DNA of 45,362 bases, counting the filler, from Catajapyx aquilonaris (Eukaryota), in NCBI GenBank assembly GCA_000934665.2. It is 2 parts of 2 records of this genome, joined end to end, with 100 filler letters (N's around TTAATTAATTAA, not from the genome) between each part and the next. Parts side by side here need not be neighbours in the genome. Positions count along the whole stretch, not along the records: positions 22,735 to 45,362 come from JYFJ02005838.1; 1 more part is not named here. One strand, 5' to 3'. The notes below the pieces were generated by a model that was given only the letters and a program-made list of their open reading frames with translations, had not been told where the DNA came from and searched no databases. How positions within the stretch are numbered: position 1 is the stretch's first letter; every line of letters begins with the position of its first letter. Both the position numbers and the translations under genes were made by a program. Positions 7,196 to 40,325 of this stretch are shown piece after piece.

Positions 7196-9314
7196 GGTCA
7201 ACTCTTACGCTTATTCATGAAAATGGGGGATCCAAAAATACTTTAAGTTTAATGCCCTCCAGATGAGTCGCGGCAATTATTTTTAGGACCCATGGCACAA
7301 TCGACTACGTAGCAAAACAGGTTTACACATGAAACCAAGAATAGATTGACAAGACGCAATCAATAAAAATGCCTTCTACAGAGTCGGTGCAAGAATCGAA
7401 AATAGACTCGTGTATGTCAGTAACCCTCCCGTTTACAATACAGTACGGTACCTGTACTGGCTTCTGGAACTGGACCCAAACAACCTTCTAACCTAAGGCT
7501 TTAACACCCCAGTCCACCGTAAATAATGACTGATTATCAAATTATCTATCACGTGATCTGCTATTAATCCACTCGCGTCTTTAAGGGTGCTGTTGCTATC
7601 ATTAGATTACGTAACAGTGCAAATAGCATAGCTCCCAAAATTCACTTTACAATCTGCAGATTGTGCCACACAATGAACAACTGCCTATTATGCCATTTTT
7701 TGGACAGCACTTATCACCCTTATCGTGTTATTATGTAGACACATCCCACAGCTTTTCTCCAAGTATATATCACAAAACACTACTGCTTGCAAACAAATGG
7801 CTAGTCACACTGTTGTGCACTTTTTACGAGCTACTTTTTGCACACAACACGTGACTTTCAAGGTTGACATGCATGGCCTTGATACAGCATGTGTAGGAAA
7901 ATTTTTCTGATAAATTCTGACAACATTCTGCCTAGCACAGCTGAGCATGCAATATTTCCCGAGCAATCCACTTGTCTATATAATGGAAGCCTGTTGATCA
8001 GAATATTGCAATGGTGATGGGAACAAATGATTAAAATGAGAGGGTGAGTCATGTGGACGGTCTGTGACCCAACAGTGGAGTTATAAAGCTCACTCCCTCT
8101 AAAAGATATCTGTTATGCAATCTGTAGCTTGATATCACTGGTGTACCAAAATAAACCTTGGGGTTGACCTTTCAGATCTATACAACCACTTGGGAATATG
8201 TAATAATTTACAAAATTTATTTATGTACTTGCATGGATACAACGACAGTAAAAGTGGAAAAAAACATGCACACACACAGAGAGATCTTCTTCACGTACAC
8301 TTGTACAAGTTCTTACATAATTTTGAGATTTCATTGGAGGATTTTACTTAGCAATATATTTTTACTGGAAAATGTGAAATGAACTTCGGCAAATTCAATA
8401 TAAATGATATGTACATATTAGCACAAAGAAATGGTCTGCTGCTGAAAACATTTATGGCCCAAGCAGTTAGATTTTATTGAATAATAAAGTAAAATGCCAC
8501 ATTAAAAACAAAACAAAACAAATTCTGTAAAAAAAGAGAATCTTCCAAATGCATTATGGTGCTACACAACCAACAGCACTCATGTTTGTTTCCCTGTTCA
8601 GTTTTTCATTGATAGAGTGCTGACAGCTGTGTAGTGGCAAGATATGTTTGGTCGAAGCTTGAGTGTGCTATCTGGCAACGAGGTGAAATGGCAAGGTATG
8701 CTATTAATCTGTGTCCACATTTTCTGCTCTTGAATATTGTTTTGGCAAATAGAAAACCCTGTTTTGTGTGTTGAGCAATATAAGTTGTGCTTCAAGGTTT
8801 TCCAAGGGGGACATAATTATGAGGATGTTAGAAAGAATATCAATACCAAGCCTTCATACATTTGACTGTCAAGGCAGTCCTTATGAGCCATTTATCAAAT
8901 GGGCATAAAATACTGCCTCATCTCAAAAACAGAAGGCGCCACAAGACTCAAATCATCATTTCTCGGCTGCCATCTACCACCTTTTGTTCCCAACATGAAT
9001 TGCAAAAGTAAATTCCCAATGTTTCCCAATGAAATCTTCCAATACTAGGCTAAATTGTCTTATATGTAATGAGAGGAATCTGTATAAAATGAGAAATACT
9101 TCCTTCAGAAAATGCACTGAACATACTGCTTCATTCAACATGGTCAAGTGAGATTTTTAAATAAGAAAGAATGATAAGAAGAAGAAAAATCAAACATCTT
9201 TGAACTTTCACTGTTACCAAAACCTGCCTTGATATTCTAAAGGACATTCTGTATAATTACTGAAATAACATCAACCTGAGTAAAATAAAATACTTCACAG
9301 ATGCCATAGTTCGA

Positions 9315-12056: not shown

Positions 12057-12484
12057 TACAAGGACTGTCCAAAAAGTATACGACTTTTATTTTTTCATGG
12101 AAACAAATGAAGAGTGGGAGGTGTCCTGTGGTGAGTACTGTGGTGAGTAGGTAGGGAGTACCTTCATGAGTATTCGTTAATTTTTTCGAGCCACCAGAGA
12201 GAATCAGTCACTGGCAGTCAGACTGTCTGACCGAGGGTACTTAGGGGGGGCACTAGTAGGATTTTTCATTTTCCAATAAAAAGACAGAACCACTTGAACA
12301 GAAGTGCGGCATCAGATTTTGCATTCATGTCTGGCAATACTCAAGTGGAAACCATTCGGAAGATTCAGCAGGTTATCGGTGACGATGCAATGGGCATCAC
12401 ACCCTTTCAAAGATGGCTGAACGTGGAGACTCACTTTCCAACAGGCCCTCAACAAGCCTATATGACAATGTCACTAACCAAGTG

Positions 12485-12739
12485 TGGAGCGATAAAGCAA
12501 AACCCGCAAGATCCATCACAAACTTTTCTATTGATCTTGCTGGTTTTGCTTGCACTGTGCTGCTGGATCTTGCAGTATTTGCTTGAATCGACAGTTTTTG
12601 GGCTCATATACTATGGAACTAACACATTTTGCCCGACCAGCTTTTAACACCGCATCACAACCTATGTGATGGACAATATGCCATGCCTAACTCGTTTCCC
12701 GCCAACATTGGATCTTGCGGGTTTTGCTTTGCCGCTCCT
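12485..12739. mobile_element. MITE with ~30 bp TIR and 6-bp TSD, superfamily unassigned
   Basis: CAAGTG-TGGAGCGATAAAGCAAAACCCGCAAGATCCA ... TGGATCTTGCGGGTTTTGCTTTGCCGCTCCT-CAAGTG. Confidence 0.7.
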
Positions 12740-19376: not shown

Positions 19377-20662
19377 TTGTCTCATTTAATAGCAACCATG
19401 ATTGCCAAAGATGTAAAACCTGGTTGTAGCACTGATACCGATGTACAGGAGCGGGTAGTCTGGTTTAACAGCGGGCTGCTTATGACAATCCCATATTATG
19501 AAGGCCGTGCGTCCGAATCACCACTACAATTCTTACCCCACACAGAGATGGCTGGTCAGATGTTGCAGTGGTCCGATTTAGAAAAAATAAACGACTTCAA
19601 ATTACAACTGCGAGACCCGACCTCCACACAAGTCATGCTGTCAGCCAAGTTCAAGAACATAATTAACTGGGAATCTTTCAAGAAGCAGTTGCTAGAACAG
19701 CGGTTCCCAACCTGGGGGTCGCGAAGCCTTTTCCGCGGGGTCGAACATGGCCGCGGTAATTTTTATAAGTGATTTTTTTTCTTCAAACTTTTTAAATAGG
19801 CAATTTCATCGTGAAGGTTTTTTTCAACACCTACTAACACTTGGGGAGGGGAGGGGGGGGGGGNGGGTTGCAGGTTACTTGGCTATCATAAAAGGAACCC
19901 GAAAAAGGTTGGGAACCACTGTCCGAGAACATTTCAGTAGTACTCGCAACTACTGTGAATTAATAGGGAAAATGCAAAGTGTCTATCAAAAAGACACGGA
20001 AAGTGTACAGGACTTTGTAACGCGAATCAGACGGGTGAGATATTACATTATGACTGATACAACCGATAGTCGACCAACTTACTTCATCTCAGTTTCCTTC
20101 AGGGGTCTATTCAAATGGAATTAAGAGAAACCTGGCGATCCTCAAACCAAAGACATTAGATGAGGCATTAAAACTAGACTTGGAAGAGGAAAGGCGTGAT
20201 GGCAGAAATTTTTACCGTGACAAGAAGCCCAAACATGGGGTCTTCGTTATACAGCCGTAGGATGATACAACGGCGTCATTAGCCAAAAAAGTGGCCTCTT
20301 TGACTCATCAATTGGCTAGATATCAGCGCGAAATCGAGAGAAATACACAAGAAGCCAGAGTGGCAGTTAACCGACCTCCCCCAGTATTTCCTAATCAAAG
20401 GGGCAAGACAGAAAATTTTGCGTCTCGAATTCCCTCTTGCCCATTGTTGAAATGCTTCCGGTGCAATAGTGATCAGCATTTGATTGTGAGGTGTCCCATA
20501 AGCAACCTCCCCCCCCAAGCCCATGGCACCAGTGTACGGGCTGGCACTGGAGGCGCAATTGTCCATTTAATAGCTCTGGAATGGCCCAAGGTAGCCAAGA
20601 AGGAGAGACTAGGAATCAGACACGTCAAACGGCCTTTCACAACAGGTCAGGTCATAAGTTGA
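19377..20662 (+). pseudogene. Disrupted retrotransposon gag
   Basis: IPYYEG..SPLQFL, WESFKKQLLEQ, QKDTESVQDFVTRIR (major-homology-like) and CFRCNSDQHLIVRC (CX2CX4HX4C, 20453-20494) in separate frames; stops, frameshifts and a hAT insertion. Confidence 0.8.
19698..19921. mobile_element. hAT (Charlie-like) MITE inserted in gag
   Basis: TIR CAGCGGTTCCCAACCT / AGGTTGGGAACCACTG; 8-bp TSD TGCTAGAA / TCCGAGAA (6 of 8 match). Confidence 0.75.
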
Positions 20663-20996
20663 AAATTATTTATACAAATCTTTGAGTGCCGTCCATTTCC
20701 TTCCCTTCTTGCTAAAAGAAATGACATAATAACCGGAAAGTGGACTCTGTAGGGATGCTACCCATCAGCAATAGCCAATCAGACTATAATATTTTATTAT
20801 GAATTCTGCTCCTTTTCTGGCTGGCTAACATCCGAGTGTCAGTTTTCAGCCAGAAGGAAATTAGTACCAGGAATTTGTAAAAATTGTGGTGGTCATCATT
20901 TCATGCCAGCCCTATGGACAATGTCTGTTCCGTGCTTTTGTCCAGTGGGTTCTCAGCACTTCACCAGAACGGTTCTCTTACACCTTTACGCCAGTT

Positions 20997-21710
20997 ATGG
21001 AGTCGCCTAATCCCGTCACTCTCAGGAACTTGTTTCCGATCTTTGAGGACTACGCACAGGCCAATGGACCTGTGCTCACCTACGTGCTTCCGAAGCCGGT
21101 GGTGGATGAGACACCCTCCCTGACGACGCTGCAGCTGAGTGGCCACACCATACCACATGGTTCTTTGATCATCTGTCCGGAACCCTTCAGCGGAGGGATG
21201 GAAATTTTGAGAATCAATAACGACTGGATCTCTGACTGGAGATGGTTGTCACCAGAAGCGACCATGGTGGTACAGCCCTGGCGTCCATCCATTTTCAACA
21301 GTCCGATGCAGGAGTGGAGATTGGAGCCCCGTGACATACCCACAGTCGTGCATGAGGCACTGGAAGCCAGCCCAATGAGCAACGCCGCTTCTGGAGCATC
21401 TCATAAGAACGACCCTACCTTGCCCACACCAACACCTGGGAGGAGCGTCGATTTTCGGACCATGGCGTCAAAGTGCCCTCGCCATCAGGTTGACTGCGAC
21501 GTACCGGCAGTGAAACCTAGTGCATTGGCAACCAGCCGTGGCCAGATGGGGGACATCGCTTCCGGGGCGTCTAACAAGACCGCTACCTTGCCTACTTCAG
21601 CACCGAAACGCTCCGTTCTTCGAGCCGAGCTGTTGAAGCCCCCTCAGGACATTCTGAAGATTCGCCCTAACGGGAAACGTAGGAAGGCGTCCAAACGCCC
21701 TGAGGTTTGA
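20997..21710 (+). CDS. Unknown accessory ORF of the LTR element (237 aa from ATG; frame open from 20886)
   Basis: Longest ORF in the supplied track; sits between gag and the PPT; no RT, RNase H, integrase or TM motifs; Pro/Ser/Thr-rich tail with basic C-terminus. Confidence 0.5.
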   Translation: MESPNPVTLRNLFPIFEDYAQANGPVLTYVLPKPVVDETPSLTTLQLSGHTIPHGSLIICPEPFSGGMEILRINNDWISDWRWLSPEATMVVQPWRPSIFNSPMQEWRLEPRDIPTVVHEALEASPMSNAASGASHKNDPTLPTPTPGRSVDFRTMASKCPRHQVDCDVPAVKPSALATSRGQMGDIASGASNKTATLPTSAPKRSVLRAELLKPPQDILKIRPNGKRRKASKRPEV

Positions 21711-22634: not shown

Positions 22635-22734
22635 NNNNNNNNNNNNNNNNNNNNNNNNNNNNNNNNNNNNNNNNNNNNTTAATTAATTAANNNNNNNNNN
22701 NNNNNNNNNNNNNNNNNNNNNNNNNNNNNNNNNN
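22635..22734. other. Assembly gap (100 nt) with artificial TTAATTAATTAA spacer
   Basis: 44 N + TTAATTAATTAA + 44 N; true distance unknown. Confidence 0.95.
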
Positions 22735-25334: not shown

Positions 25335-25413
25335 TATAAGGAGAACTGAAAACTGCAGGTAGCCTTGATATCATAGTCAAGTTACCAGGCACATAAAATG
25401 GCAAAGACCTATA

Positions 25414-26069
25414 CAGGGTGTAACAAGACCCCATGCATAAATTTTAAAGGTGGGTAGGGGACCCCAAAACAAACATTTTTGACCAATGAACCCACCCTCT
25501 AAAAAAATTACCCACCCTCTAAAAAATCATCAAATTTACTGAAATCGATAACTTGTTAGTACCTGTGGTACAGTAACAGTTATGTGGTTTGCTGCTACTC
25601 TATGGTAGCGTTGTCATGGTAGTGTTGACAAGTAATTGTCTGGTACAACACAACAAGTAAAAGTCTGGAAAATAAACAATTCAGTGTTGTTCCAATCAAC
25701 TCGGGAATCTCTTGTGCGTCGTTGTAGGCTGTGTGTACAAGTGGCTGGACGACACTTTTAGCAGCTCCTTTGATTACAGTTTTGTGTTGGGTGCAATAAA
25801 GGTGGTGGTGAGTTTCATGCCAGCTTTCATTGATTTGTGGTGGTGATGACTTTTTACAGTACTGTACTGAATTGTCAACACTATACCATGACAACGCTCC
25901 TGTTGAGTAGCAGCAACCACATAACTGTTACTACAGGTACTAACGACCAGTTAGCAATTTCAGTAAATTTGCTGATTTTTTTAGAGGGTGGGTTCATTGG
26001 TCAAAAATGTTTGTTTTGGGGTCCCCTACCCACCTTTAAAATTTCTGCATTGGGTCTTGTTACACCCTG
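25414..26069. mobile_element. Tc1/mariner-type MITE family X, copy 1 (656 bp)
   Basis: TA-CAGGGTGTAACAAGACCC...GGGTCTTGTTACACCCTG-TA, ~210 bp TIR; near-identical to 39525-40178. Confidence 0.9.
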
Positions 26070-26212
26070 TATAGAAACTGCACCGGTGAAGCTTAGCTGC
26101 TAAGCATAACAAATATAAGTACATAATTTGTAATGGCAAGTCTATAAAAAGTCTTCAAAGCAGGATGTAATTTGCTTACAAGGCCAATGCCTAAGGACTG
26201 ACCACACTCCCA

Positions 26213-26416
26213 TCATATGCCAGACATGCTCTCATCATCACAAAATTTAATTTCAGGATGGTACTGGCTGTAATAATCTAGCTGCTTAGTGATCTCATCA
26301 CTATCACTGGACATGCTTTCAACGTCAAAATGCTCCTCCTCATCTTCTAGGTCGTCAATGTCTTCATCTTGAATCTCTCCGGCTTCTTCTTTCTGACGTT
26401 TGACACGTTCTGACCA
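26213..26416 (-). CDS. Last coding exon of the ANK gene: acidic tail
   Basis: Acceptor ATTTTACAG|TGG; WSERVKRQKEEAGEIQDEDIDDLEDEEEHF...ESMSGI*. Confidence 0.65.
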   Translation of the reverse strand, partial: WSERVKRQKEEAGEIQDEDIDDLEDEEEHFDVESMSSDSDEITKQLDYYSQYHPEIKFCDDESMSGI

Positions 26417-29400
26417 CTGTAAAATGTAATGCAAAAGCTATTAATAATTGTAATTGGCAATCTACAACAATCTACATTATTCTGCATGCCTAAACAAATA
26501 ATGTCCTTACAATCATTCCTTCATTTCACTCACGGGACATTCCCAAATCCTTACCTTTTTCGGGGTTTTTTAGAACCTAAAAGTCCGTTCTTTACTTATG
26601 TATAATACTCGTATAATGCACACTACGGCATTTATTAAGGAACTATTCACAAAAATGCACAATTAGCACACCCGAAAATTAGGCAAGACCAAAATAATCC
26701 AGAATTTTCTTCTATCGTCTCCTTGTTGCCAAATATACCCGAAAAAGTATGATTTTGAGTAACTTAGATAAGTGACAGATGCGAAAATCACCCCCCTCCA
26801 ATATTCTCTGCCTTCCTGCCCATCCGAAAGGATGTTGAATAATTAAACAAGATTAGCAAATCATGTGAGTGTGATTAAAGTAGACTTCTTATGTTTACAG
26901 CTATTGTCCCCAACGTCCATCACAGGACTGGGACTGAAACTGAAACCACCCACAACTCATTTTTGGCCAAAAGAGGACTTACCCTTTTCCCCCTCCCTCC
27001 TCATACCCCCACCTCCTCCTACCCCCAGACCACCCCTTTCCCCTTCAAAAAATATATTCTAGCAAACCCATATTTTAGACCTTTTCTCATCCATCGAAAA
27101 AAGTCTTTTATGGCTGTCCGTCTGTCGACAGATATCAAGTATGAGGGGATAGGAGGAGGGAGGAGGGAAATGGTGATCTGGGGGAGAGGGCAGTGGGGGG
27201 ACTGGGAGGTAAGGGGGAAAGGGACGGTCTGGGGAAAATGGGCAGACAGGGGGTGGTGGGGGAAAGGGGGGGGGGGTGCAGCAGGGGGAAGGGGCGGATA
27301 GAGTGAACACGGAACCCGAAAATCGAAAAAAAGTCTTACAGCATTGCTCTGTCTGTCTGTCTGATTCCTGTCCACAGACAGACAGACAGCAGAGCCGTTC
27401 TATAAGACTTTTTACTCTCGAAACCCCACCGAGGAGCCAAAAAATGGTGGTATAGCCAAGGTGGGGTGAAAATGAGTATGTTATATCAGGAGTAAAAATA
27501 AACAGGGTCTTATGGAAGTATGCCGGGACCGGCCTTTCAAGTCTTGTTATAACCAAAAGTCCGTTATAACCGAGGCTGTTATATCCGGAGAGTTGGTTTG
27601 GTTTATTAAGAAGAAGCTAAAGCAACTATAGCTATATGGCTATAAGAAGAAGCAAAGGTGGGACAGATGGAGAGGGAAACGAAGAGAGTCAACTGTATCT
27701 CAGTAGTTTCTCCTAGAGTGGACCTGGACCACTCTACCCTCGAGGTCTTCATTTTTTCCTAAGATCTCTCTATTGACATCTTTCCATGGTTTTGCAACAG
27801 CCCCTAAGTCAATGCTTTACGACTGTAAAAAACATTTCAGACTGTATGTTTAATAATTATGGGTGAAATTTTTGCCCTAATGCTAATAAATTTCTGCTAG
27901 AAGGTTGCTACTGCTAATCAGAATTCTTTCATTTAAGTTTTTTCATTGGTTACCATGGTTATCAGTTGCTGACATTTATTTAGCAGTAACTAGCAGTAGG
28001 AGGGAGTGCACGGTGGTCTAGTGGCTTACTGGCCAGCCAAGTGGAGGTCCAGGATTCAAATCCTGTCCCCATCACCCTTGCTTTGTTAAGTCTTTTTCCG
28101 CTTCTTCACCCTTCACAGATTGAAGCGAGAGGGATGCCTTGAACGCAAAACCCACAGAACTCCCAAAAATCTAACAGAATAATGGCATCAAAAAGGTGTA
28201 AATAGGTGCAAATAGGCACTAATAGGCCATTTAGGTTCCAACGCGTGAAATTGGCAATTTTAAGTTTCATAAAACTATGATTGTTGAGGCACTTGTGTTA
28301 TACTGCAAATATTTTGGTTCCGGTGTTCTACCTAGAGAATAAAAAGTAGGTAAAAATCTAGAAATCAATTCTTTACTAATGGCTTTCACCAATGAATGTG
28401 CAACTTAGTGTACAGCCGCGATCATAAAGATAATATATTATGGATGGAAGTACTCCCCTTGCTATTAGAGAAGCAGCAAGTATCATCATTACATAATCAA
28501 CATTGGTGTTCTCGGCATGTCCTAGACTTAGACTAGTAGTCCTACCCTGGTTCCGTTATTGAGGGGGGGGGGGGGGGGNAGAAGTCAAGCAATAAGCCCC
28601 CAAGCAGAGGAAGAACTCTGGTATATCATCTACATATTTCTGCTCACGTCTGTACTATACATAGTTTTCAATCCAATTGGTGGTGATCACCTTTGTGCAA
28701 TATTCGGAAAGTCTATTGTTTATCCGCACCTAGCGATGTGGCGGGCTTGGGAGGGCGTGGTGGGCTCCAAACATGTTGGCTACGGGTCGCAAACAACCGG
28801 TTGCCGGAAGAGCACAACAAAGGGCGCCTTCTTACCCAATGCCACGCGAACCGATCAGACGAGTGCTAGGACCACAGTATTAATGAAAGAGGTGGGAAAT
28901 ATGAAAGCCATGATGGTTGCTGCAGTCCTTTAACCCAAAGAACAACATGATGTCACACCAGCTGTGTTTTCTGAGCGTGTGCAGTAGTATGCCTGCAGAG
29001 TGAGTCATGGGCATGATTGGAGGGGAGAGCCGGGTGGAGGCGGGCGGATCGTGACGTCATGTCGTTCGTTGGTTTAACAGACTGTGTGAAGGTGTATTTC
29101 ACGCTTGGCAAAGCCACAATAGCATTTGTTGGCCTGCTGCGCACAATGAGGACCGCATTGTATGCATATACAAACCCACAATAAGTGCCCAGCTCCACTT
29201 TCGCTCCGCAGGGCCACAACCATGTACAGTACTGTTGCAGTAACAAAAAGCCATACAGCAACACCAAGACAAAGGGCTATTCCATCCACTTAATCACCTC
29301 ATAATCCCGAATTGAATCCCCAAAAGCCCGAAAAGAAGAATAAAGCACAGTTCCATATTGTAACCGTGCAGCAGTATCAATAGGCACCCGATTGTTTGCA

Positions 29401-32400
29401 ACGCAACGTTGCCAACCATCGGGAGGCCCCCCGCCCGCCCAACCCCGACCGTGTTGTTAAGGTGCGGATAAACAATAGTTTATCCCAATATTCTTACCTG
29501 TCGCAGATACCGACAGATGTCTGGATTTTGTGCCATGTCAAGAGGGGTCATTCCTCGACTGTCTTTTGCCAGGGGGTCAGCTCTCTCATGAAGAAGGTAA
29601 ATGACTACCTTGAGTCTGCCTCCATAAGCAGCAAAGTGAAGGGGTGTTTCACCCCACTCTCCAGTGATGTTGACAGTAGCACCAGAACGCAGGAGGAGCT
29701 TCACGATCTCCAAGTGGCCCTCTACTGATGCTATGTGCAATGCTGTGTATCCATCCTGGTTCTTCAAGTCCAGATTTGCTCCCCATCCAAGCAAGTCTGC
29801 ACACAATGAGATGTATCCCTTTAGAGATGCACAATGGAGAGCTGTCTGGCCATCCACACTCATCTGGTCCACTGGCCAGCCAGTGCTCAGCAAGAAGGTC
29901 ACCATCTTCGAATACCCATGCTTTGCTGCAATAATTAGGGCAGTGTCTCCAGAATGGTCTTTTTCCATCAGAAGCCATCTAATCCCTCTTCTCTGCACAA
30001 GTTCTTCCACCCTTTCCAAGCAGCCTTTCTCACAGTCGCTCAGGAAAGTCTCTGTACTTGCCTGCTCAAATGGATGTGAACAAAAAATCATAAAAATTAC
30101 GCTATGCCTTATGGTTTCTCTACAATGTGCATTAATCATTGTTCATCTAACAAAAGGGCGAATTCAATGTTTACTTAATATTAGAGAACAAGAGCCAAAA
30201 TAAACCTGCAAATCGCCATGCAAAAAAGGAGGATCACATTTTGATTTCCCACTCCAACTCCAGGGGACGAAATAATCAAATGCAAAGGTGCAATTTGCAA
30301 TGCAAAATTGTTATTTGTACTCCAGCTTTTTCTTGTGGTGCACAGCCTTTATGGTCAGGTCTCTGTAACTCACAACCAAACTAACTATTTTTACCCTCCA
30401 AAATTTCGAAATTTATGGGATTTTCACCTCTGCTGCTAATTTTCACGTCAAAATACAAGGCAAAAGGTGATATACCAAAGCCACAACACTAGCAGCTTGT
30501 CGCGGGTCGCAGGTCCCCGGTCGCTGCAACTGTAGCTCGCTCCAGAGTGGTGCGAAACGAATAGAATAACCCCTCACATGCTTCGAAATCAATTTTATGT
30601 AGCAATTTATGATTCAAGTGTAATCAATCATTTACATATCACTGATATCAGTCACAGCGACCTACGACTGGCCAGCCGGGACAAGCGACCGGATGCACTG
30701 GTGTTGTGGCTTCGGAATATCGCCTTTTGGCTTGTATTTTGACACTGCTAATGTGAAAATTAGCAGCAGAGGTGATGTTTGCACAACACTATAGGCCAAG
30801 CAGAATTAGAAAATGCAAAAACTTTCATAATTTAGGAGGGTAACAAGAGTTAGTTTGGTTGTCAGACAAAAAAAAACTCCAATTTGTTCTGCATTTTACC
30901 ATGGCTGAACCCAGTAATTAAAGATTAATCACTTGAAGTAAGTAACTCTAGATGAAAGTCTGGAGTGCAACTTTTACATGTGCAGCAAAAATTTATGATT
31001 CAACACCTGCAACGCTGACCTCGTTTGCCCATGAGTTCGCCGTTTTGTCAGCATGCAACGCAACACTGATGTTGCTGGCATGTGCTGTAGATGAAATGTG
31101 CCTAATGTGGAATACTTGCCTAATGTAGAATACCGGCTTATTTAAAAAAACTATACTGCACATCACCTGTCGACGCTTTGACAAAATATAGTTCTACAGG
31201 GTGTCCCACAAATTACGCTACCCAGAATTACATTAATAACTGTAACACAAATAAAGATATTGCAACGGAATTTGAACTCAAGCAATCTCAACACGTGAGA
31301 AAGGAATTGGAATGGGTCTGTCAAATGTGGGTGCTGTAATACTGACGCTGGAGCGACGAATTGGCCAGACGACACCTGAGCAGTGCGTGGCTGGATTTGA
31401 CTTTCGACTGGATATTTTCAACAGGATGGGGCGACATGCCCCACATCACATGTCAGCATGGCCGAAATAAAGTCCTCCTTCGGCGACCAAGTCATTTCGA
31501 AGGGACTGTGGCCAGGGAGCTGTGGCCCCTGCGGTCGCCTGATCTTACGCCACCTGATTACTTCTTATGGGGCTTTCTGAAAGGAAGAGTGTACCGCAAC
31601 AATCCACGGTCCAACCAGGCCTTGAAGGACAACATCGTCCAGGAAATTCAGGCAGTACCGCAGGATATGCTGACCAAAACATTCCAAAATAATATGTCGC
31701 GCCGTGTTGACACCTGCCTGGCTGCTAATGGTGGCCATTTCTAACACATGTTGTGATGCCATTTCAAATCACACATGACAAGGTTAGTTCAGTTCAAATT
31801 TCGTTGCAATATCTTCATTTGTGTTGAGGTTAATTCCATAACTTCAACACAAATGAAGATATTTCCAGAATTATTCTGGGTATCATAATTTGTGGGACAC
31901 CCTGTATTTATAGAGCAACACTAGCGACGGTGTAGAGAAACGGTCAATCACTTAACATTTCTAGCAAAACAGATTAATCACTTTTGCCGACCACATGCAA
32001 AAAGTTTTTGATCGAAGATATCAACGTCTATTGCTGTCTTCGTATTACACAGCGCAAAATTGTTATCAAGACCGTCACCAGCAAGGTCTGCAGAATCGGT
32101 GCAGGTAAAAATTATAACTAAGTATTTCAATATTATTATGCAATGGAAAAATTGATCACAATAATTATAATGACATGCATTGTATGCCTAATGTGGAATA
32201 CATGGACTTGCCTAATGTGGAATACTATTCCACACAAGGAACACAACTTATTGAAAGTCAGTGTCACAGAATGCAATTTATCACATAATACTCTCATCAA
32301 AATGCCACTGACTAAATGGGTGAAAGAGAGGCAGTAGAACCCTGACCAGATGTCTAAAGCCATAATTGCTGCTGTATGCAAGAAGATGGGATACGAGGGA

Positions 32401-35400
32401 TTATCAGTAATGTACAGGGAGGCGAAGTGGCGCTGCCGCTGCGGCAACGTATGTGCCCACGGATGTTAAGGTCCCGGGTTCGATCCCAGCCCGGGGACAC
32501 CCCCTTCATCTCGTGCAGAGTTCAGGGTCACCTCTGGCTTCGTCTCGGGTGGTATTTACTATAGACTAAACCACCTGGGGGAGTTCACTAAAAATGGCCA
32601 CATAATGACATTGCACTGTACCTTGCACATCCCCTCCTGTCATCCTGCCCATGGGCCCAGGCGTTACGTATAAAGGCTCCAATGTACAAGACATAATAAA
32701 AATAAATGTCCGTGCTATATACCTCGGATAGGTCAGCACTACCCCGGATTATTATTATTATTATCATCATCATCATCATCATCATCAGTAATGTATGTAG
32801 TGCCTGGCACAATTCTGTCTCACTTACTAAACAATGAAGGTGATATGAGTGCTGAAACAGCAAAAAGAATACCCCTTACACCCAATATGTATGTGATTTC
32901 TGTCAATACAGGAGGTATTCCACATTAGGAACACTTTTTTGAGGGGTCATTTTCGTAAGGTTTCAGAAAAATGTGTTTATGAAAAAAACTATGCAACTGA
33001 TGGTAATTTTCTTTCGGGATCTAAGTTTTTCCAATCAAATTGTAAGTTTTAGACAGTTTCATTTATTTTTGCAATCTGTAGAAGCTGAAACATATAATGG
33101 TATTCCACAGTAGGCACATCTCCTCTAATCCTAACTGAGCAAAAATTTTGAATTTGGCCATTTGTCAGATTAATGACGTAATCTTTCGCAAGTGACTTCA
33201 TTATTCAAAATTACCTGCTGGTAATGTTCCACTCCTCATTTTAACAATTCCTTATACAATATGAAGCTCCATTAAGCACCAAACATCATCAAGAAACTTC
33301 CAGAAAAACAATTCTCTTGAAAATCCACATCTTAAAATTGAAGTGTTCACTGCCATGGCACTCCCTTTCCAAGGTTTCGATCACCATGACTAGACCTGAC
33401 AATTTAATAGATATTTGATTGTAATCTGCCTCAACAGTAATGGACATTGCAACAAAGAATGAAAGAGGATTCCTTGTGCCACTTCTACCTGAACACTGCC
33501 CCCAATAAAAATGCCTGTAGTGAACATTTTTTCTACTTCAACGCAAGACAAAGAACCAAACATGAGAAATAAACAAACTAAAAATTTCCTATTGTGCATG
33601 AACAGACCTGCACACATACGAGAAAGTGCAAGTCAAAAGTGGCTATCTTTGCCGAATTTCATTACATGAGAAAACACCACTTTTCTGTTACGATTTGTGT
33701 ACTTGCAAATGGGATTCCCATATTTCTTCCTCTTATATCTTTTGTCACAGTAACAATTGTTATGGTGCCAAAAAATATATAGCTCATTGCGACATGGGTC
33801 TTTGTCTCACTAGGTCCACCTTTACTTAAAGATTTTAATGGCAGTGCCAGCTCAAAAACAACAACAAAAAAAGACTAAAAGAAGATAGCCACTTTTGACT
33901 TCCACCTCCTCATATAATGCCTCCTCTCTGACCTTGAGGAGAAGAGAATGCATCTCTTCATCTTGTGCCAGATCAAGAGGAATGTTTCCTCTTCTGTCCT
34001 CAATCAGAGGATCGCTTCCCTCTACCAATAGGTGACAAGCCACTCTCAGCTCGTTATAACAGGCTGCAAAATGCAGAGCTGTCCGGTCACTCTCGCCGCG
34101 GATGTCCACATGTGCTCCTGACTTCAGGAGGCGTTTCACCACATCCAAATCCCCTGCCTTCACAGCAAGGTGTATGGCAACATTCCCAACTCGGTTCTTG
34201 ATGTTGACATCAGCTCCACATTCAATCAGGGCAATGCAGGATGCCAAATCGCCTCGTTCAGCACTACAGTGAAGAGCTGTCTGGCCTTCCCAACTTGTTT
34301 GGTTTGCTGGCCATCCAGAACCTACAAGGCAAGCAACTACACTTGGCCACTTCCCTTTGGCTGCCACAATGAGTCCACTGTCTCCTGATTTGTCCGTTTC
34401 TGCAACCAACGTATTGATCCCTCCAGCACGCTGCACGAGGTTCATTACTCGATCATGTCTGCCAAGTTTGCAGTATTTCAGAAAACGCCTTCCATCCACC
34501 TGTGCAAACATATATTTCAGTCATAAGAAGAGGCAGGTCTGCATGTGAAATTGTAAGATCCCTAGCTTACAGTGTATCACCATTTTCTGCAAATGAGATT
34601 CCCCAATCTTGTTCAGCCATGCTTACAAAGTTCTCGAAGGTTTGCATGAAGGTCTAAGCAGGAAGTGTTATGCACTACCTCAAAAATACATTACCATGCT
34701 TACACACGATAATGCAGCCAAGTTATAATGAAGCTGCATGGTCTTTGGTGCAAAGAGACAAATGCTACCTTATACGAGAACAAATCAAAAAGTAACTAAC
34801 AACTTTTTAAATCCTGAAGCTTCACTACAGGAACTCACACTGACATACACGCATGAAAGGGCAAGTCTGTCTCTAAGTTTCAAAGTAGTCACCAAAAGCA
34901 TTGATGCACTATCCCAATGGGATACTAATTGTTCCATGCAACTGCAGAAAAAGCATCAGGTTGGCTGCGAAGCCAGTGATGAATTTCACTCGACTCGTCG
35001 CTGAAGTGTTGACCTGCCAGGTGCTTCTTCATTGGTCCAAAGAGATTGTAATTTTCATTTGGGTTCAATTCAGGGACATCCTCAGGCCTGAATCTTCCGT
35101 CACAGTATGCGCTACAAGAGGACAAGGTAGGCCCTATGCCATAGAGAGGAACAACATCAGTCATGTTCATTTATGGCGAATTGTTGCACTGAAGTGAGCC
35201 CAGGTGCCAGATGCTTTGACTGAGTAATAAGGACTGACCTGACCAATGCTGCAGACTTGAATATTTTCAAAGGAGGGGAATCTGCATGCTTTCACACTGT
35301 ACTGCTGCAGCACCTACCTTACAACCCTGACTTGGCCCCAAGTGATAATCACCATCTCTTAGGACCAATGAAGAAGCCTGGTCGGTCAAGACTTCAGCGA

Positions 35401-38400
35401 CAGTGCAGGAATGAAACGAGCCGTCCACCACTGGCTGACACTTTTTCTGCAGTTTCATGACAAATTAGCGTCTTGGTGATGTAAGCGCATCAATGTGTAT
35501 GGTGACTAGGTCGAACAGTAGAGAAAGACTTGTCCTTTCATATGTGTATGTCATTTTGAGTTTCTGCAGTGAAGCTTCAGAATTTAAAGCAGTTGTGAAT
35601 ATTACTTTTTGATTTACCCTCCTAGTAAGTCATATTAAAGGGCCATCAATGGATCCTTTCAGATTGCAGAAAAAACAGGAATTCTTCTTGTTAAACAACA
35701 AAAATCCATGCAAAAATGTCATCATACTCACTTCAAATGAATCGGGAATATGCTGAGGATGTACACGTTCTACTCCAACTTGACGTGCTGTCATTCCAAA
35801 CGCATCCTTAGCCATCGAGTCTGCACCATTTTCCAGAAGATATTCGGCCAGCTGCAACTTACCACCAATCATGGCTTGGTGAAGTGGGGTCCTATGTCTA
35901 TATCCTCCATCCATTATGTCTGCCCCACACCTCAACAGGAGGGAAACAGTTTCTATGTGGCCACCAAATGAAGCAAAATGTATGGAGGAATCGCCGTAGG
36001 CATCCTTGCTCCCAACACTTGCCCCTTGACTCAACAAAACCTCAGCTGTTGAGTAGTGTCCGCTCTGAGCAGCATAATGAAGTGCTGTCTTTCCATCTGT
36101 ACTCCTCTGGTCCACAGGCCACCCCCAACTCAAAAGGCAGGCAACAGTGCCTTTCCTTCCGCCCCAGGCAGCCAAGTGCAGTCCGCTCATCCCATCTTGG
36201 TTCTCAAGACTAATCAGAACTGCAGTGCAACCTCTCCTCTCCATGACATCTCTCACATCGTCGATTCTACCCTCCAAACTGGCTTGGAGGAAGTACGACT
36301 GGTACAGCTGTGCAAAAATTATGTGTGCGTGAACAAGCTTAATGTAAAATGTGCATGCAACTGCAACACTGCAAGTCCCTGTTGTACAGTGTGTACAGAA
36401 TGGCAGCGAGCATGTGCATCTCCTCTCAGTCTTGTTTAGGTTCATTTTGAATGTCTATGATGAAAAAGGTCTAGTTGATTTTTGTTATTGCAACTCCATT
36501 AGTATCATGATTTTCATTCCAATACATAAGCAAATCTGAAGAACTATCCTGCGGATTACCATGCGTCATCAAGTAGTCTAACCATCAAGCTATTCCCAAA
36601 CACATTGAATGGTACAAGCCCTTCCTCAAAAAAATTTGGACACCTCGAAAATTGGCAGCAGGGGTCGGAAAAAATGCCCTGCTGCTCATGAAAGTGGAGG
36701 TTTATTGCAGCGAAAGGGATTAAAATACACAAAGGGACATCTAATGCTGTGATGAGATCAACTATGATGCATTTGGCACACTCAGGTCAAAGATTATATG
36801 GGTAGGTGAAAATGCATGCCGCGATGCGTAGATGTTCAGACACCTTGTGAGCTGAGTCATATTGTTTGGACAGCTCCCATATTTCCAGCACAAGTGTGCA
36901 TACCTTCCCCGTGGTTGTTGGGAGGTCTGGTCAGGTACAAATGCTCACACTTTGCTGCACTCTTGTGCAATCATGGATCTGTGCGAGGTGATTGTGAAAA
37001 CCCAAACAGAAGTGAGGTCTGTACCTGTTATTGCATGTGACATGAATGTGCCACACTCCACCGTTGTTGACATTATTCTTTGCCCATCTCGGATATGGCC
37101 CACTGTCCTATTCATCGACAAATCCAGCTTCGAGCTAAACCTTGAAGGTAAATGCATATGAGTATATTCTGCATGAAGGAGGAGGGATCATTAGATCCTG
37201 ATTAGTTAGTTTTGATTCTTCATGCCTGATGGTGTGTAGGGTTGAATGGGATGGAATACCATCGCTATGCTGCACATGATAGAAGGCAGTCAACACAGGG
37301 AAATATCAGGCATTCAGTGGAACAGCTTGCTACTGTCCATTATTGGTGCTACATCTCTGGGATATCATGTTCCAGCACGACGGCATGACCTGCCACATTG
37401 CTAGGACTAAGAACTGGCTCTCTCGGGACAACACTGAGATACTGCCATCGAAAACATTTTGGGGGACATGAAGCGGTGTGTCTGCAGGTATTAGCCTCAA
37501 ACCATGACCTGCTTACAGAAGCTGCTGCTTGAGATATGGGTCAAGATCACCCCTTCCGACTGTGCGGCTCAATATGACACCATCCCTGCTGGACTCCAAG
37601 CTGGGGTTGCAGATAGGGGCGATGTGACAAAGTACTCATGAAAGGACTACTGCATTCATATTTATATTTTCTGAGTGTCATCTTTTGCAATGTTGCTGAC
37701 TCTTGAAATAAACCTAGTTTGCCAGACCTCTGCCATTCATTTGAAGGGGTTCACTGGCAGTTATGGGACTGAGGAAAAGGTTCTTAGATGCAGGACCAAC
37801 GTGACCAAGATATTGGCAAGAAATCAGCAACAAAAGTACCGGTAATGCTGTCCGAACATTCACTTATCTTGGCAAGCATTTTCACCGACCCATAACCTTT
37901 GACCTGAAGTGCAAAACACATTATTATTGGTGTCATTGCAGATCTAAATGTCCCTTTGTGTATTTTCACACCTCTAGCGGTAATAAATCATGTTTTTTTC
38001 TGACCCCTGCTGCCAATTTTCAAGGTATCCAAATTCTTATGCAGAAGGGCTAGTAGGTATCTTGGGTTACTTTACAAGATTTAACCTTCTTCCCCTTAAA
38101 ATGTCTGAAATTGGCTGAAATGGTCAAACGTCATTACAGCATATCATAATTAGAAGATTGAAAGAAACAGAGCAAATATCATTATTTGATGCTTTGGATC
38201 AATTAATTATCAGGACTTGCTGTAGTTGCAATGTGACAGGGGATCAAGACTTACCATTTTCATTGTCTGGGCCATATGCAAATCACCAGCCTCCTCTGCA
38301 ATGCTCAGGGGAGACCTCTCATTGCTGCCAACAATCAAAGGATCAGCACCCTTTGACCCAAGAAATTGGACCACATTGTGGCGGTGTTTGTATGCAGCGC

Positions 38401-38830
38401 AATGCAAGGGAGTCCAGTTCCCCTGGCCCTTGTCATCAAGCCGGGCCCCACACTGGAGGAGCAGCTCCACCACTTCAACAGAGCCACCCCAAGCCGCGCG
38501 ATGTATGGCAGCATCTCCAAAAGAATCCCTGGTGTTCACCTTGGCCCCTCGTTCAATCAGCATCTCACAAGTAGAAAGATAGCCTCCCTCAGCTGCTTGG
38601 TGCAGGGGAGTCCTTTCATCCTGGCCCTTTGGATCAATGGGCCACCCCTCTTGCAATAGGTAGGAAACCACCAGGGACCTCCCTTTCTTGGCAGCCCAAT
38701 GAAGACCACCATCACCCCAGCTGTCCCTCAGGTGGAACAACTGCCGAACTCCTCCTTTCCGCCCCATACACTTCTCTACTTCACTCAACTTGCCTTCCTT
38801 GCACGCTCGAAGGAAGTCCATCGTGCCCAT
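26213..38830 (-). CDS. Multi-module ankyrin repeat protein, ~828 aa if all exons are included
   Basis: join(complement 38830-38255, 36307-35732, 34499-33933, 30061-29498, 26416-26213); every junction GT-AG and phase 0; canonical G.TPLH.AA..G...V..LL..GA repeats; exon connectivity inferred. Confidence 0.8.
27070..27420. mobile_element. (GTCY)n-containing interspersed repeat, possibly DINE-1/Helentron-like, with G-rich tract
   Basis: TAGACCTTTTCTCAT..GAAAAAAGTC..GTCCGTCTGT.GACAG also occurs at 24328-24395; GTCT/AGAC inverted microsatellite at 27347-27390. Confidence 0.35.
29498..30061 (-). CDS. ANK module exon D (188 codons)
   Basis: TTTGAGCAG|GCA ... CAG|GTAAGA; four ANK repeats plus caps. 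Confidence 0.85.
30372..30862. repeat. Degenerate foldback / old MITE
   Basis: ACAACCAAACTAACT..TCACCTCTGCTGCTAATTTTCAC..GTCAAAATACAAG is mirrored at 30700-30862. Confidence 0.6.
31197..31904 (+). mobile_element. Internally deleted rosa/DD41D-like Tc1/mariner transposon
   Basis: TA-CAGGGTGTCCCACAAATTA / TAATTTGTGGGACACCCTG-TA; FQQDGAT and WPLRSPDLTPPDYFLWGFLKGRVY...ANGGHF catalytic-domain remnants. Confidence 0.85.
32415..32783 (+). mobile_element. tRNA-derived SINE (family 3)
   Basis: B box GGTTCGATCCC; (ATT)n(ATC)n tail; 12-bp TSD ATCAGTAATGTA. Confidence 0.8.
33933..34499 (-). CDS. ANK module exon C (189 codons)
   Basis: TTTGCACAG|GTG ... AAG|GTCAGA (donor less certain); four ANK repeats plus caps. 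Confidence 0.8.
34775..35622. mobile_element. Palindromic mariner derivative (two 3' ends)
   Basis: TA-flanked long IR; HLPYNPDLAPSDNHHLLGPMKK on plus and NYNLFGPMKKHLAGQHF..WLRSQP on minus. Confidence 0.75.
35732..36307 (-). CDS. ANK module exon B (192 codons)
   Basis: TTTTTGCACAG|CTG ... GAA|GTGAGT; four ANK repeats plus caps. Confidence 0.85.
36615..38053 (+). mobile_element. Degenerate Tc1-like transposon
   Basis: TIR CAAGCCCTTC..GAAAATTGGCAGCAGGGGTC / GACCCCTGCTGCCAATTTTC..GAAGGGCTAG, TA-flanked; remnants WPTVLFIDKSSF, FQHDG..CH and IENI. Confidence 0.75.
38255..38830 (-). CDS. ANK module exon A (192 codons, contains start codon)
   Basis: TATAG|GT-ATG-GGC start; ATG|GTAAGT donor; four ANK repeats plus caps. 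Confidence 0.85.
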
Positions 38831-39306
38831 ACCTATACTGGTAAGGACACAAAATGTTAGCTTGTATGCATTCCTTTATTGAGTGACGTAGTAGGTGAGT
38901 GATATATGTCTCTTTGTAAACATTTGTGCAGTGTGACCCAAAATACTTGTCTGAAGGATATGGCTATTTGTTGGCACTAATAAGCTGCTCATTTTTAACA
39001 GTTACTTTGGCAGTGTTACTTTGAGTGGTGAGCAAAAGTATTAGCTGCTAATAATACCAAGCTAAATCATCCATTCAAGCTCTGAACTGCAGAGCATTCC
39101 TGATTAAGTGATTAGAAATGTGCCACTGGAACAATTGGCATCTCACACTAATGATGGAACCCACTTTGTACAGGCCAGACCCCCTTGGAGGATTTCAAAT
39201 TAATGAGGTACACTCAACCTAATATTAGCAGCTAAAATTTTGATAACCATGGAAAGTATGCAAAACTAAGTGCTTAAAAATAAGTAGCCCAGTGCCAACT
39301 ATAGTA

Positions 39307-40325
39307 CTGTCTGATTTATTTCACTCACAACCGACGTCACCCAGCCCCCTTCTCTTCCACCCATCCACCCCTTCACGGACTGTACTTGTTACCAACCTAA
39401 CCTCACGCATATGTGGTATCACAAACAATGTTGTAATTAAATCAGACTGCATACATTTGTTCATTGACACTGCACAATTCCCTTGTCATGGACATGAAGG
39501 AACAGTGTTGGCTACAGCTGTATACAGGGTGTAACAAGACCCAATGCATAAATTTTAAAGGTGGGTAGGGGACCCCAAAACAAACATTTTTGACCAATGA
39601 ACCCACCCTCTAAAAAAATCACCCACCCTCTAAAAAATCATCAAATTTACTGAAATCGATAACTTGTTAGTACCTGCGGTACGGTAACAGTTATGTGGTT
39701 TGCTGCTACTCTATGGTAGCGTTGTCATGGTAGTGTCGACAAGTAATTGTCTGGTACAACACAACAAGTAAAAGTCTGGAAAATAAACAATTCAGTGTTG
39801 TTCCAATCAACTTGGGAATCTCTTGTGCGTCGTTGTAGGCTGTGTGTCCAAGTGGCTGGAGGACACTTTTAGCAGCTCCTTTGATTACAGTTTTGTGTTG
39901 GGTGCAATAAAGGTGGTGGTGAGTTTCATGTCAGCTTTCATTGATTTGTGGTGGTGATGACTTTTTACAGTACTGTACTAAATTGTCAACACTATACCAT
40001 GACAACGCTCCTGTTGAGTAGCAGCAACCCCATAGCTGTTACTACAGGTACTAACCAGTTAGCAATTTCAGTAAATTTGCTGATTTTTTTTAGAGGGTGG
40101 GTTCATTGGTCAAAAATGTTTGTTTTGGGGTCTCCTACCCACCTTTAAAATTTATGCATTGGGTCTTGTTACACCCTGTATATTGCATTAATGGTGACAG
40201 CTGTGACCATGTGTGTGAGGTTAGGTTGATAACAAGTACTACAGTCTGTGGAGGGGTGGATGGGTGGATGGGTGGAGGAGAAGGGGATTTGGTGACGTCG
40301 GTTGGGAGTGAAATAAACCAGAGAG
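39307..40325. mobile_element. Older TA-flanked MITE hosting MITE X copy 2
   Basis: CTGTCTGATTTATTTCACTC..ACCGACGTCACC..AACCTAACCTCAC is mirrored at 40208-40325. Confidence 0.65.
39525..40178. mobile_element. Tc1/mariner-type MITE family X, copy 2 (654 bp)
   Basis: Same TIRs and internal sequence as 25414-26069, same orientation, TA TSD. Confidence 0.9.

What the first reader, a model, noticed from the sequence alone, without database searches (positions are those of the whole stretch)
29498..38830. Array of four self-contained, splice-interchangeable ankyrin modules, one per exon
Seen: four homologous exons of 192, 192, 189 and 188 codons, each with FL at positions 6-7, an N-cap, a first repeat ending in an unusual GWP, three more repeats and a C-cap. 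B, C and D are phase 0 at both ends and A ends in phase 0; all are open despite TE-riddled introns. Established: capped ANK stacks are autonomous binding domains (the DARPin principle), and tandem duplicated symmetric exons often underlie cassette or mutually exclusive splicing in arthropods (Dscam, Mhc). Inference: either a beads-on-a-string tetravalent scaffold or a splice-generated repertoire of up to 8 A+(B/C/D) combinations.
Basis: partly seen in the sequence, partly recalled or inferred. Interest (0 to 1): 0.75.

Follow-up and report, generated by a model that had tools for sequence, protein, structure and literature searches.

The report
Ankyrin gene with four duplicated exons
An animal gene is built from four old tandem copies of one large exon, each encoding a complete six-repeat ankyrin binding domain; this is an ordinary way for repeat proteins to grow, and nothing yet shows that splicing swaps the copies.

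Summary
Four homologous minus-strand exons of 192, 192, 189 and 188 codons (38830-38255, 36307-35732, 34499-33933, 30061-29498) carry GT/AG signals at homologous, phase-0 positions. They are 37-47% identical, and F6-L7 and a rare G-W-P are invariant. AlphaFold2 folds modules D and B as compact stacks of six helix pairs (pLDDT 94.9 and 93.4); B's C-terminal cap is weak. A 67-codon acidic tail exon (26416-26216) fits in phase 0, which gives an ankyrin-only protein of about 828 aa.

The splicing idea could not be tested: no RNA run was listed and no genome is held. Phase symmetry is a precondition for in-frame exon duplication, not evidence of alternative use. Introns are 1.2-3.9 kb and show no shared docking/selector complementarity. 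No close orthologue appeared in any protein or metagenome search.

Best reading: one gene, grown by ancient tandem duplication of a whole-domain exon, encoding a multivalent ankyrin scaffold comparable in layout to tankyrase's ankyrin repeat clusters. It is a new member of a known kind and of low to moderate interest.

The parts
38255..38830 (-). Exon A / module A: 192 codons, begins with the ATG (second in-frame ATG at codon 4), ends in phase 0 at donor GTAAGT
35732..36307 (-). Exon B / module B: 192 codons, phase 0-0. The last half-repeat is degenerate and predicted with low confidence.
33933..34499 (-). Exon C / module C: 189 codons, phase 0-0. It has the weakest donor (GTCAGA). In-phase alternative GT sites lie after 33906 and 33900.
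29498..30061 (-). Exon D / module D: 188 codons, phase 0-0. It is closest to C (47% identity).
26213..26416 (-). Candidate last coding exon (inferred): 67 acidic, serine-rich codons plus a stop (26215-26213), behind a phase-0 acceptor ..ATTTTACAG. No Pfam family and no Atlas hit.
36308..38254 (-). Intron A-B, 1947 nt. It holds a foldback element with arms at 36613-36842 and 37849-38055.
34500..35731 (-). Intron B-C, 1232 nt. It holds a foldback element at 34773-35624 (arms about 300 nt, 76% identical).
30062..33932 (-). Intron C-D, 3871 nt. It holds a TIR element at 31195-31906 (34-nt ends, 94% complementary) around a decayed ORF at 31346-31744, and a second foldback at 30369-30865.
26417..29497 (-). 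Intron D-tail (inferred), 3081 nt. It holds a TIR element at 28699-29492 whose end lies 5 nt from exon D's donor.

Best explanation
This is one protein-coding gene on the minus strand. It grew long ago by tandem duplication of a single large exon that encodes a whole ankyrin domain.

Each domain has a hairpin-less N-terminal helix pair, four full 33-residue repeats (the first ending in G-W-P) and a C-terminal half-repeat. The main transcript joins A-B-C-D and probably a short acidic tail exon. That gives an ankyrin-only cytosolic protein of about 828 residues.

The protein acts as a multivalent protein-protein interaction scaffold. It has four compact binding domains with differently diverged recognition surfaces, joined by linkers of about five residues. 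The B-C junction is probably the most flexible.

Shown: the exons, their homology, the splice signals, the fold of modules D and B, and the divergence of surface positions.
Inferred: the joining of the exons, the tail exon, constitutive inclusion and the scaffold function.
For: - Four homologous ORFs with Pfam Ank/Ank_2 scores far above cut-off.
- Consensus donors and acceptors sit at homologous phase-0 positions, exactly where inter-module similarity ends.
- Only A has an ATG at the module start.
- G-W-P is invariant in all four modules but occurs in 1 of 5974 instances in other ankyrin proteins. The duplicated unit was therefore the whole six-repeat module.
- No intron similarity is left beyond the splice signals, and identity is 37-47%, so the duplication is old and all four frames have stayed open.
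- AF2: module D has pLDDT 94.9 and pTM 0.89 with six helix pairs. Module B has 93.4 and 0.90.
- Foldseek top matches are DARPins and gankyrin, TM about 0.9.
- Recognition-surface columns show 16% pairwise identity against 49% for the framework. None of 10,000 random column sets was as low.
- The tail has a phase-0 acceptor, 67 codons and a stop.
- None of the 132 other minus-strand ORFs scanned reached a Pfam cut-off, so the protein is ankyrin-only.
Against: - No transcript evidence of any kind: no RNA run was listed and no genome is held.
- No orthologue was found to show conservation of the exon order, the module number or the tail.
- The window's own protein is not in the protein collections searched.
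- Each of B, C and D has an in-frame ATG 4-47 codons upstream in its open frame, and a stop 5-33 codons past its donor. Independent translation is therefore not excluded.
- Exon C's donor (GTCAGA) is weak.
- Internal exons of about 570 nt flanked by kilobase introns are, from my recall of the exon-definition literature, more prone to skipping.
- The tail exon has no support beyond its open frame and acceptor.
Confidence: 0.55

Rival explanations
1. Cassette-exon repertoire: B, C and/or D are skipped in a regulated way. One gene then yields up to eight in-frame proteins carrying different sets of binding modules.
For: - All internal exons are phase 0-0 and divisible by three, so every skip stays in frame.
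- Each module folds on its own.
- Recognition surfaces differ between modules.
- C has a weak donor.
- The exons are long (564-576 nt) and lie between 1.2-3.9 kb introns.
Against: - Symmetry is required for any in-frame exon duplication, so it carries no extra weight.
- No junction data exist.
- The abstract of PMC9741552 (seen in the listing) calls tandem-duplicated exon substitution events rare.
- Two earlier notes of this scan on other genomes with the same first-reader idea ended as ordinary constitutive repeat genes (unchecked here).
Confidence: 0.2
2. Strict mutually exclusive splicing of B, C and D (Dscam or Mhc type): each mRNA holds A, exactly one of B/C/D, and the tail.
For: Tandem homologous exons of nearly equal length and equal phase. 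The genome is called arthropod-type in earlier notes (unchecked), and such clusters are common in that group according to the introduction of PMC9013439.
Against: - All 17 inverted-repeat pairs of 20 nt or more in 26000-39200 are intra-intronic. None shares an arm between introns, as a docking site with selectors would.
- Introns are far too long for steric exclusion.
- Including two or more exons stays in frame, so nonsense-mediated decay would not enforce exclusivity.
- The exons encode whole autonomous domains rather than alternative versions of one part of a fold.
Confidence: 0.04
3. Four separate small genes or transcription units: each module is expressed on its own as a protein of about 200-240 aa. 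It would start at an upstream in-frame ATG and read through the 'donor' to the next stop.
For: In-frame ATGs lie 47 (B), 4 (C) and 10 or 25 (D) codons before the module start. Stops lie 14, 33, 26 and 5 codons after the donors.
Against: - Similarity between modules stops exactly at consensus acceptor and donor sites in all copies.
- The extensions share no similarity and look non-coding (cysteine- and phenylalanine-rich).
- B, C and D have no ATG at the position where A has one.
Confidence: 0.08
4. Unexpressed or decaying gene: an intact-looking relic in a transposon-rich region.
For: No RNA holder could be listed and no relative was found (see Tried and rejected). Transposon-like elements lie in every intron, and one is 5 nt from a donor.
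Against: Four frames of about 190 codons remain open, and all ankyrin framework positions are kept after divergence to 37-47% identity. AF2 confidence is very high. Old copies without selection would carry stops and frameshifts.
Confidence: 0.08

Closest known systems
Tankyrase ankyrin repeat clusters (ARCs)
   Same: Tankyrase is a chain of discrete ankyrin sub-domains, each an autonomous peptide-binding unit (abstracts of PMC6439159 and PMC6911004, listing). A profile of the four modules hits four tankyrases five or six times each, in register with their roughly 150-residue periodicity, and the hits end at the module's C-terminal cap.
   Different: The modules are one repeat longer: ARCs align only to profile positions from about 38 to about 190. 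No SAM or PARP domain lies in the window. Similarity is at the generic ankyrin level. The ARC peptide-binding residues were not examined. One domain per exon is, from recall, not the tankyrase gene layout.
DARPins and gankyrin (single capped ankyrin domains)
   Same: The fold and size of one module match: TM 0.90-0.91 and rmsd 1.4-1.5 A to N4C/N5C-type DARPins, and TM about 0.9 to gankyrin.
   Different: Those are single domains. Here four are chained in one gene. The N-terminal repeat has an extra short helix, and the first full repeat ends in G-W-P instead of the usual G-A-D/N.
Mutually exclusive exon clusters from tandem exon duplication (Dscam1, Mhc, 14-3-3 zeta)
   Same: Tandem homologous exons of equal phase and near-equal length (introduction of PMC9013439).
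   Different: No docking/selector complementarity was found. The exons encode whole domains, joint inclusion stays in frame, and no transcript data exist.
Repeat-protein genes that grew by duplication of symmetric exons (one module per exon)
   Same: In-frame tandem duplication of a phase-symmetric exon lengthens a repeat protein. About 10% of animal genes hold tandemly duplicated exons (introduction of PMC9013439).
   Different: The unit here is unusually large (about 570 nt, six ankyrin repeats) and is a complete capped domain rather than one repeat.
IkB-type proteins (six ankyrin repeats followed by an acidic PEST tail), from recall and not tested
   Same: Six-repeat ankyrin stacks and, if the tail exon is real, an acidic serine-rich C-terminus.
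   Different: There are four stacks instead of one. No specific sequence similarity was seen in any search.

Membership tests
Ankyrin-repeat superfamily | Match to the Pfam Ank / Ank_2 models above the gathering score | tested here: met
   All four modules: Ank 82.6-125.1 bits (cut-off 21.1) and Ank_2 85.9-176.8 bits (cut-off 27.3)
Ankyrin-repeat superfamily | Stacked helix-turn-helix repeat fold | tested here: met
   AF2 models of D and B show six helix pairs, pLDDT 94.9 and 93.4. Foldseek gives TM about 0.9 to solved ankyrin domains
Tankyrase | SAM domain and PARP catalytic domain behind the ankyrin clusters | tested here: not met
   None of 132 minus-strand ORFs of 45 aa or more flanking the modules reached any Pfam cut-off. 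Two of the 134 ORFs, those with N runs, were left out
Tankyrase | Discrete ankyrin clusters of five repeats that bind the tankyrase-binding motif | tested here: inconclusive
   The periodic layout is comparable, but the modules have one more repeat. The motif-binding residues were not compared
Canonical ankyrins (ANK1-3 type) | 24-repeat array followed by ZU5, UPA and death domains | tested here: not met
   There are four separate six-repeat units, and no ZU5 or death domain in the window. Hits to ankyrin-1/2/3 are generic, at 29-41% identity
Mutually exclusive exon cluster | Tandem homologous exons of the same phase and similar length | tested here: met
   192/192/189/188 codons, all phase 0-0
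Mutually exclusive exon cluster | Exactly one exon of the cluster in each mature mRNA | not testable with these tools
   No RNA run was listed, so read laying could not be used
Mutually exclusive exon cluster | An enforcing mechanism: competing docking/selector RNA structures, steric hindrance, or a frame shift on double inclusion | tested here: inconclusive
   No inter-intron complementarity of 20 nt or more (seed 12) among 17 inverted pairs. Introns are 1232-3871 nt. Double inclusion stays in frame. Short imperfect selectors would escape this scan

The most novel reading that the evidence does not exclude
B, C and D are regulated cassette exons. One locus would then produce a small combinatorial set (up to eight) of scaffold proteins, each carrying a different selection of autonomous ankyrin binding domains with distinct recognition surfaces. 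That would be a natural, splice-encoded counterpart of mixing DARPin modules, in a lineage-restricted gene with no detectable orthologue.
Probability: 0.12. Interest if true: 0.6.

Novelty: new member of a known kind. Interest (0 to 1): 0.25.

Why it matters
As it stands, this is a clean example of a repeat protein that grew by duplicating a whole-domain exon. Its layout parallels tankyrase's ankyrin clusters, but the protein has no enzymatic domain and no detectable orthologue. It would matter more if transcripts showed module choice by splicing. Whole binding domains would then be the unit of alternative splicing, and the four diverged surfaces would define a small programmable adaptor family. 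Without RNA or comparative data it remains an ordinary, unannotated ankyrin gene.

Tried and rejected
- RNA evidence: the look-up of sequencing runs on 29450-38900 listed no RNA holder (none was listed, which is not the same as none exists). That used the only search, so read laying could not be run.
- Whole genome: none is held.
- Orthologue searches:
  - Module D against longer proteins: 1516 hits among 2395 candidates. All 120 listed are generic ankyrin arrays of 1020-1987 aa, at most 43% identical.
  - Profile of the four modules against longer proteins: 5942 hits among 8000 scored, swamped by ankyrin-1/2/3.
  - Exhaustive phmmer of D against 1.84 billion representatives: 470,786 hits. The top 150 are all 1065-6572 aa arrays at 28-48% identity, so a single-module or self hit of about 390 bits would fall below the listing.
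  - Module D against proteins of near length: 30 hits among 250 candidates, best 118 bits at 38% identity.
  - None of the 388 proteins then fetched showed the four-module G-W-P pattern.
- Metagenome scans: with the single protein, none of 40 pattern matches was confirmed. With the alignment, 487 of 596 were relatives, the 80 kept were at most 45% identical, and none carried the G-W-P signature in an ankyrin frame.
- PDB sequence search: only generic ankyrin proteins.
- ESM Atlas: no usable hit for the tail. Only MFS clusters for the neighbouring gene, which gave no help with taxonomy.
- Earlier notes of this scan: nothing near, by sequence or in relatives.
- Literature: 0 papers hold 'ankyrin repeat', 'tandem exon duplication' and 'mutually exclusive' together. 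A looser search gave nothing on ankyrin exon modules.
- Intron flanks: they share no similarity beyond the splice signals.
- Not attempted: a fold of the full spliced protein and a two-module complex prediction. The first needs a joined sequence, and I make no binding claim that would justify the second.
Full report
**What is there.** On the minus strand, four stop-to-stop open frames (38210-38875, 35630-36454, 33852-34520, 29480-30142) are the only long frames in 28-40.5 kb with a recognisable family. All four match Pfam Ank, Ank_2, Ank_4 and related models far above the gathering scores.

Consensus splice signals sit inside the frames at homologous positions:
- Exon A runs from an ATG at 38830 to 38255 and ends at donor ATG|GTAAGT.
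- Exon B is 36307-35732, with acceptor ..TTTTTGCACAG| and donor GAA|GTGAGT.
- Exon C is 34499-33933, with acceptor ..TTTGCACAG| and donor AAG|GTCAGA.
- Exon D is 30061-29498, with acceptor ..TTTGAGCAG| and donor CAG|GTAAGA.

The lengths are 192, 192, 189 and 188 codons, and every boundary is in phase 0.

tblastn of each module against the window finds the other three at E 1e-28 to 1e-47 with 37-47% identity. C and D are the closest pair, and there is no fifth copy. In the four-way alignment, 39 of 192 columns are invariant, among them F6, L7 and G62-W63-P64.

**Anatomy of a module.** Read against the 33-residue ankyrin consensus, each module has three parts:
- four full repeats;
- a final half-repeat.

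AlphaFold2 on module D, with the other three as its alignment, gives pLDDT 94.9 and pTM 0.89. The model has six helix pairs plus an extra short helix in the first repeat. Foldseek puts it on N4C/N5C-type DARPins (TM 0.90-0.91, rmsd 1.4-1.5 A) and on gankyrin (TM about 0.9).

Module B folds equally well (pLDDT 93.4). Its last twelve residues drop to 67-71, and the second helix of the cap is missing. 'A C-cap in each' is thus only partly true, and the B-C junction is probably the most flexible.

The G-W-P that ends the first full repeat is unusual. All four modules share this rare signature in the same repeat. The duplicated unit was therefore the whole six-repeat exon, not single repeats.

**Age and selection.** The 120 nt of intron on either side of the exons share nothing beyond the splice signals. 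Protein identity is only 37-47%. The duplications are therefore old, yet all four frames are open and the framework positions are kept.

I took the positions randomised in DARPin libraries as a proxy for the ankyrin recognition surface. These positions are recalled from the design literature and come from no call. Across the 24 such columns in the four full repeats, the modules are 16% identical pairwise. Across the 108 framework columns they are 49% identical. None of 10,000 random 24-column sets was as low. This fits four domains with different binding surfaces, although relaxed constraint on exposed residues would look the same.

**Rest of the gene.** Downstream on the minus strand, the frame 26216-26437 holds a phase-0 acceptor (..ATTTTACAG|) at 26416. 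It is followed by 67 acidic, serine-rich codons and a stop. This frame has no Pfam family and no Atlas hit. I take it as the likely last exon, and this is inferred only.

None of 132 other minus-strand ORFs of 45 aa or more between 7.2 and 29.5 kb and above 38.9 kb reached a Pfam cut-off. Two of the 134 ORFs, those with N runs, were left out. There is thus no SAM, PARP, ZU5, death or SOCS domain. The predicted product is an ankyrin-only protein of about 828 residues.

The introns measure 1947, 1232, 3871 and 3081 nt. Each holds at least one foldback or TIR element, so 'TE-riddled' is fair.

**The splicing hypothesis.** I could not test it directly.

The indirect evidence is weak and mostly neutral:
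- Phase 0-0 and lengths divisible by three are what an in-frame tandem exon duplication must have to survive. They do not point to alternative use.
- All 17 inverted-repeat pairs of 20 nt or more in 26000-39200 lie within single introns and look like transposon arms. None has one arm shared between introns, as a docking site with several selector sites would. This scan would miss short imperfect selectors.
- The introns are far too long for steric exclusion. Joint inclusion stays in frame, so decay of double-inclusion products would not enforce exclusivity.
- In favour of some skipping: exon C has the weakest donor, and the exons are long for internal exons between kilobase introns. That such exons are skipping-prone is my recall, not a result.

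The literature seen here says the following:
- Tandemly duplicated exons occur in about 10% of animal genes and have often been linked to mutually exclusive choice (introduction of PMC9013439, read).
- Substitution events are rare (abstract of PMC9741552, listing).
- No paper in the library combines 'ankyrin repeat', 'tandem exon duplication' and 'mutually exclusive'.

**Relatives.** No close relative was found:
- Module D against longer proteins gave only generic ankyrin arrays of 1020-1987 aa, at most 43% identical among the 120 listed.
- The four-module profile was swamped by ankyrin-1/2/3.
- Exhaustive phmmer returned 150 giant arrays. Its listing cut-off of 423 bits would hide a single-module hit.
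- The near-length search gave at best 118 bits at 38% identity.
- Two metagenome scans gave nothing closer than 45% identity and no G-W-P signature.

The window's own protein did not appear in any listing. The gene thus seems unannotated and lineage-restricted, within the limits of these tools. No eukaryotic genome collection was searchable here.

I did not establish the taxon. Earlier notes of this scan call the genome arthropod-type, and I did not check that.

**Comparison with known systems.** The closest known layout is the tankyrase ankyrin domain, a chain of autonomous ankyrin repeat clusters that each bind a peptide motif (abstracts of PMC6439159 and PMC6911004). A profile of the four modules hits four tankyrases five or six times each, in register with their clusters. 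It uses only profile positions from about 38 to about 190, so the module is one repeat longer.

This gene is not a tankyrase, because it has no SAM or PARP domain. It is not a canonical ankyrin either.

Verdict: a real, intact-looking gene and a new member of a known kind, grown by exon duplication. The scaffold reading is plausible. The splice-repertoire reading is open but has no positive support.

Noticed in passing
window 25410-26073 and 39521-40182: Two direct copies of a 665-bp element, 97.3% identical, bracket the whole ankyrin gene. One lies about 140 bp past the tail's stop and the other about 700 bp upstream of exon A's ATG. Each carries internal inverted arms. They look like a young foldback/MITE family and could mediate deletion or duplication of the gene.
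   Followed up: partly
window 28699-29492: A TIR element (33-nt ends, 88% complementary) ends 5 nt from exon D's donor. The start of that intron could therefore pair with a site 728 nt further in.
   Followed up: no
window 36613-38055 and 34773-35624: Introns A-B and B-C each hold a large foldback whose arms lie 100-300 nt from the splice sites. If the arms pair in the pre-mRNA, most of the intron would be looped out. They are probably transposon arms.
   Followed up: no
window 2977-3384, 6485-6838 and 6839-7204, minus strand: Exons of a neighbouring major-facilitator-superfamily transporter gene (MFS_1, E 6e-14 and 2e-6).
   Followed up: partly
window 12231-12647 (+) and 31195-31906: Decayed mariner-type elements. 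One ORF has a sub-threshold match to the Mos1 transposase HTH domain (22.2 bits, cut-off 24.1). In intron C-D there is an element with 34-nt inverted ends around a transposase-like ORF remnant.
   Followed up: partly
window 20261-21710 (+): Two long open frames (133 and 281 aa), the first with a cysteine/histidine knuckle-like stretch. They may be a retroelement gag remnant. No Pfam match.
   Followed up: partly
window 22635-22678, 22691-22734, 19864, 28579: N runs and single Ns (90 in all), which are assembly gaps. None touches the ankyrin exons.
   Followed up: yes
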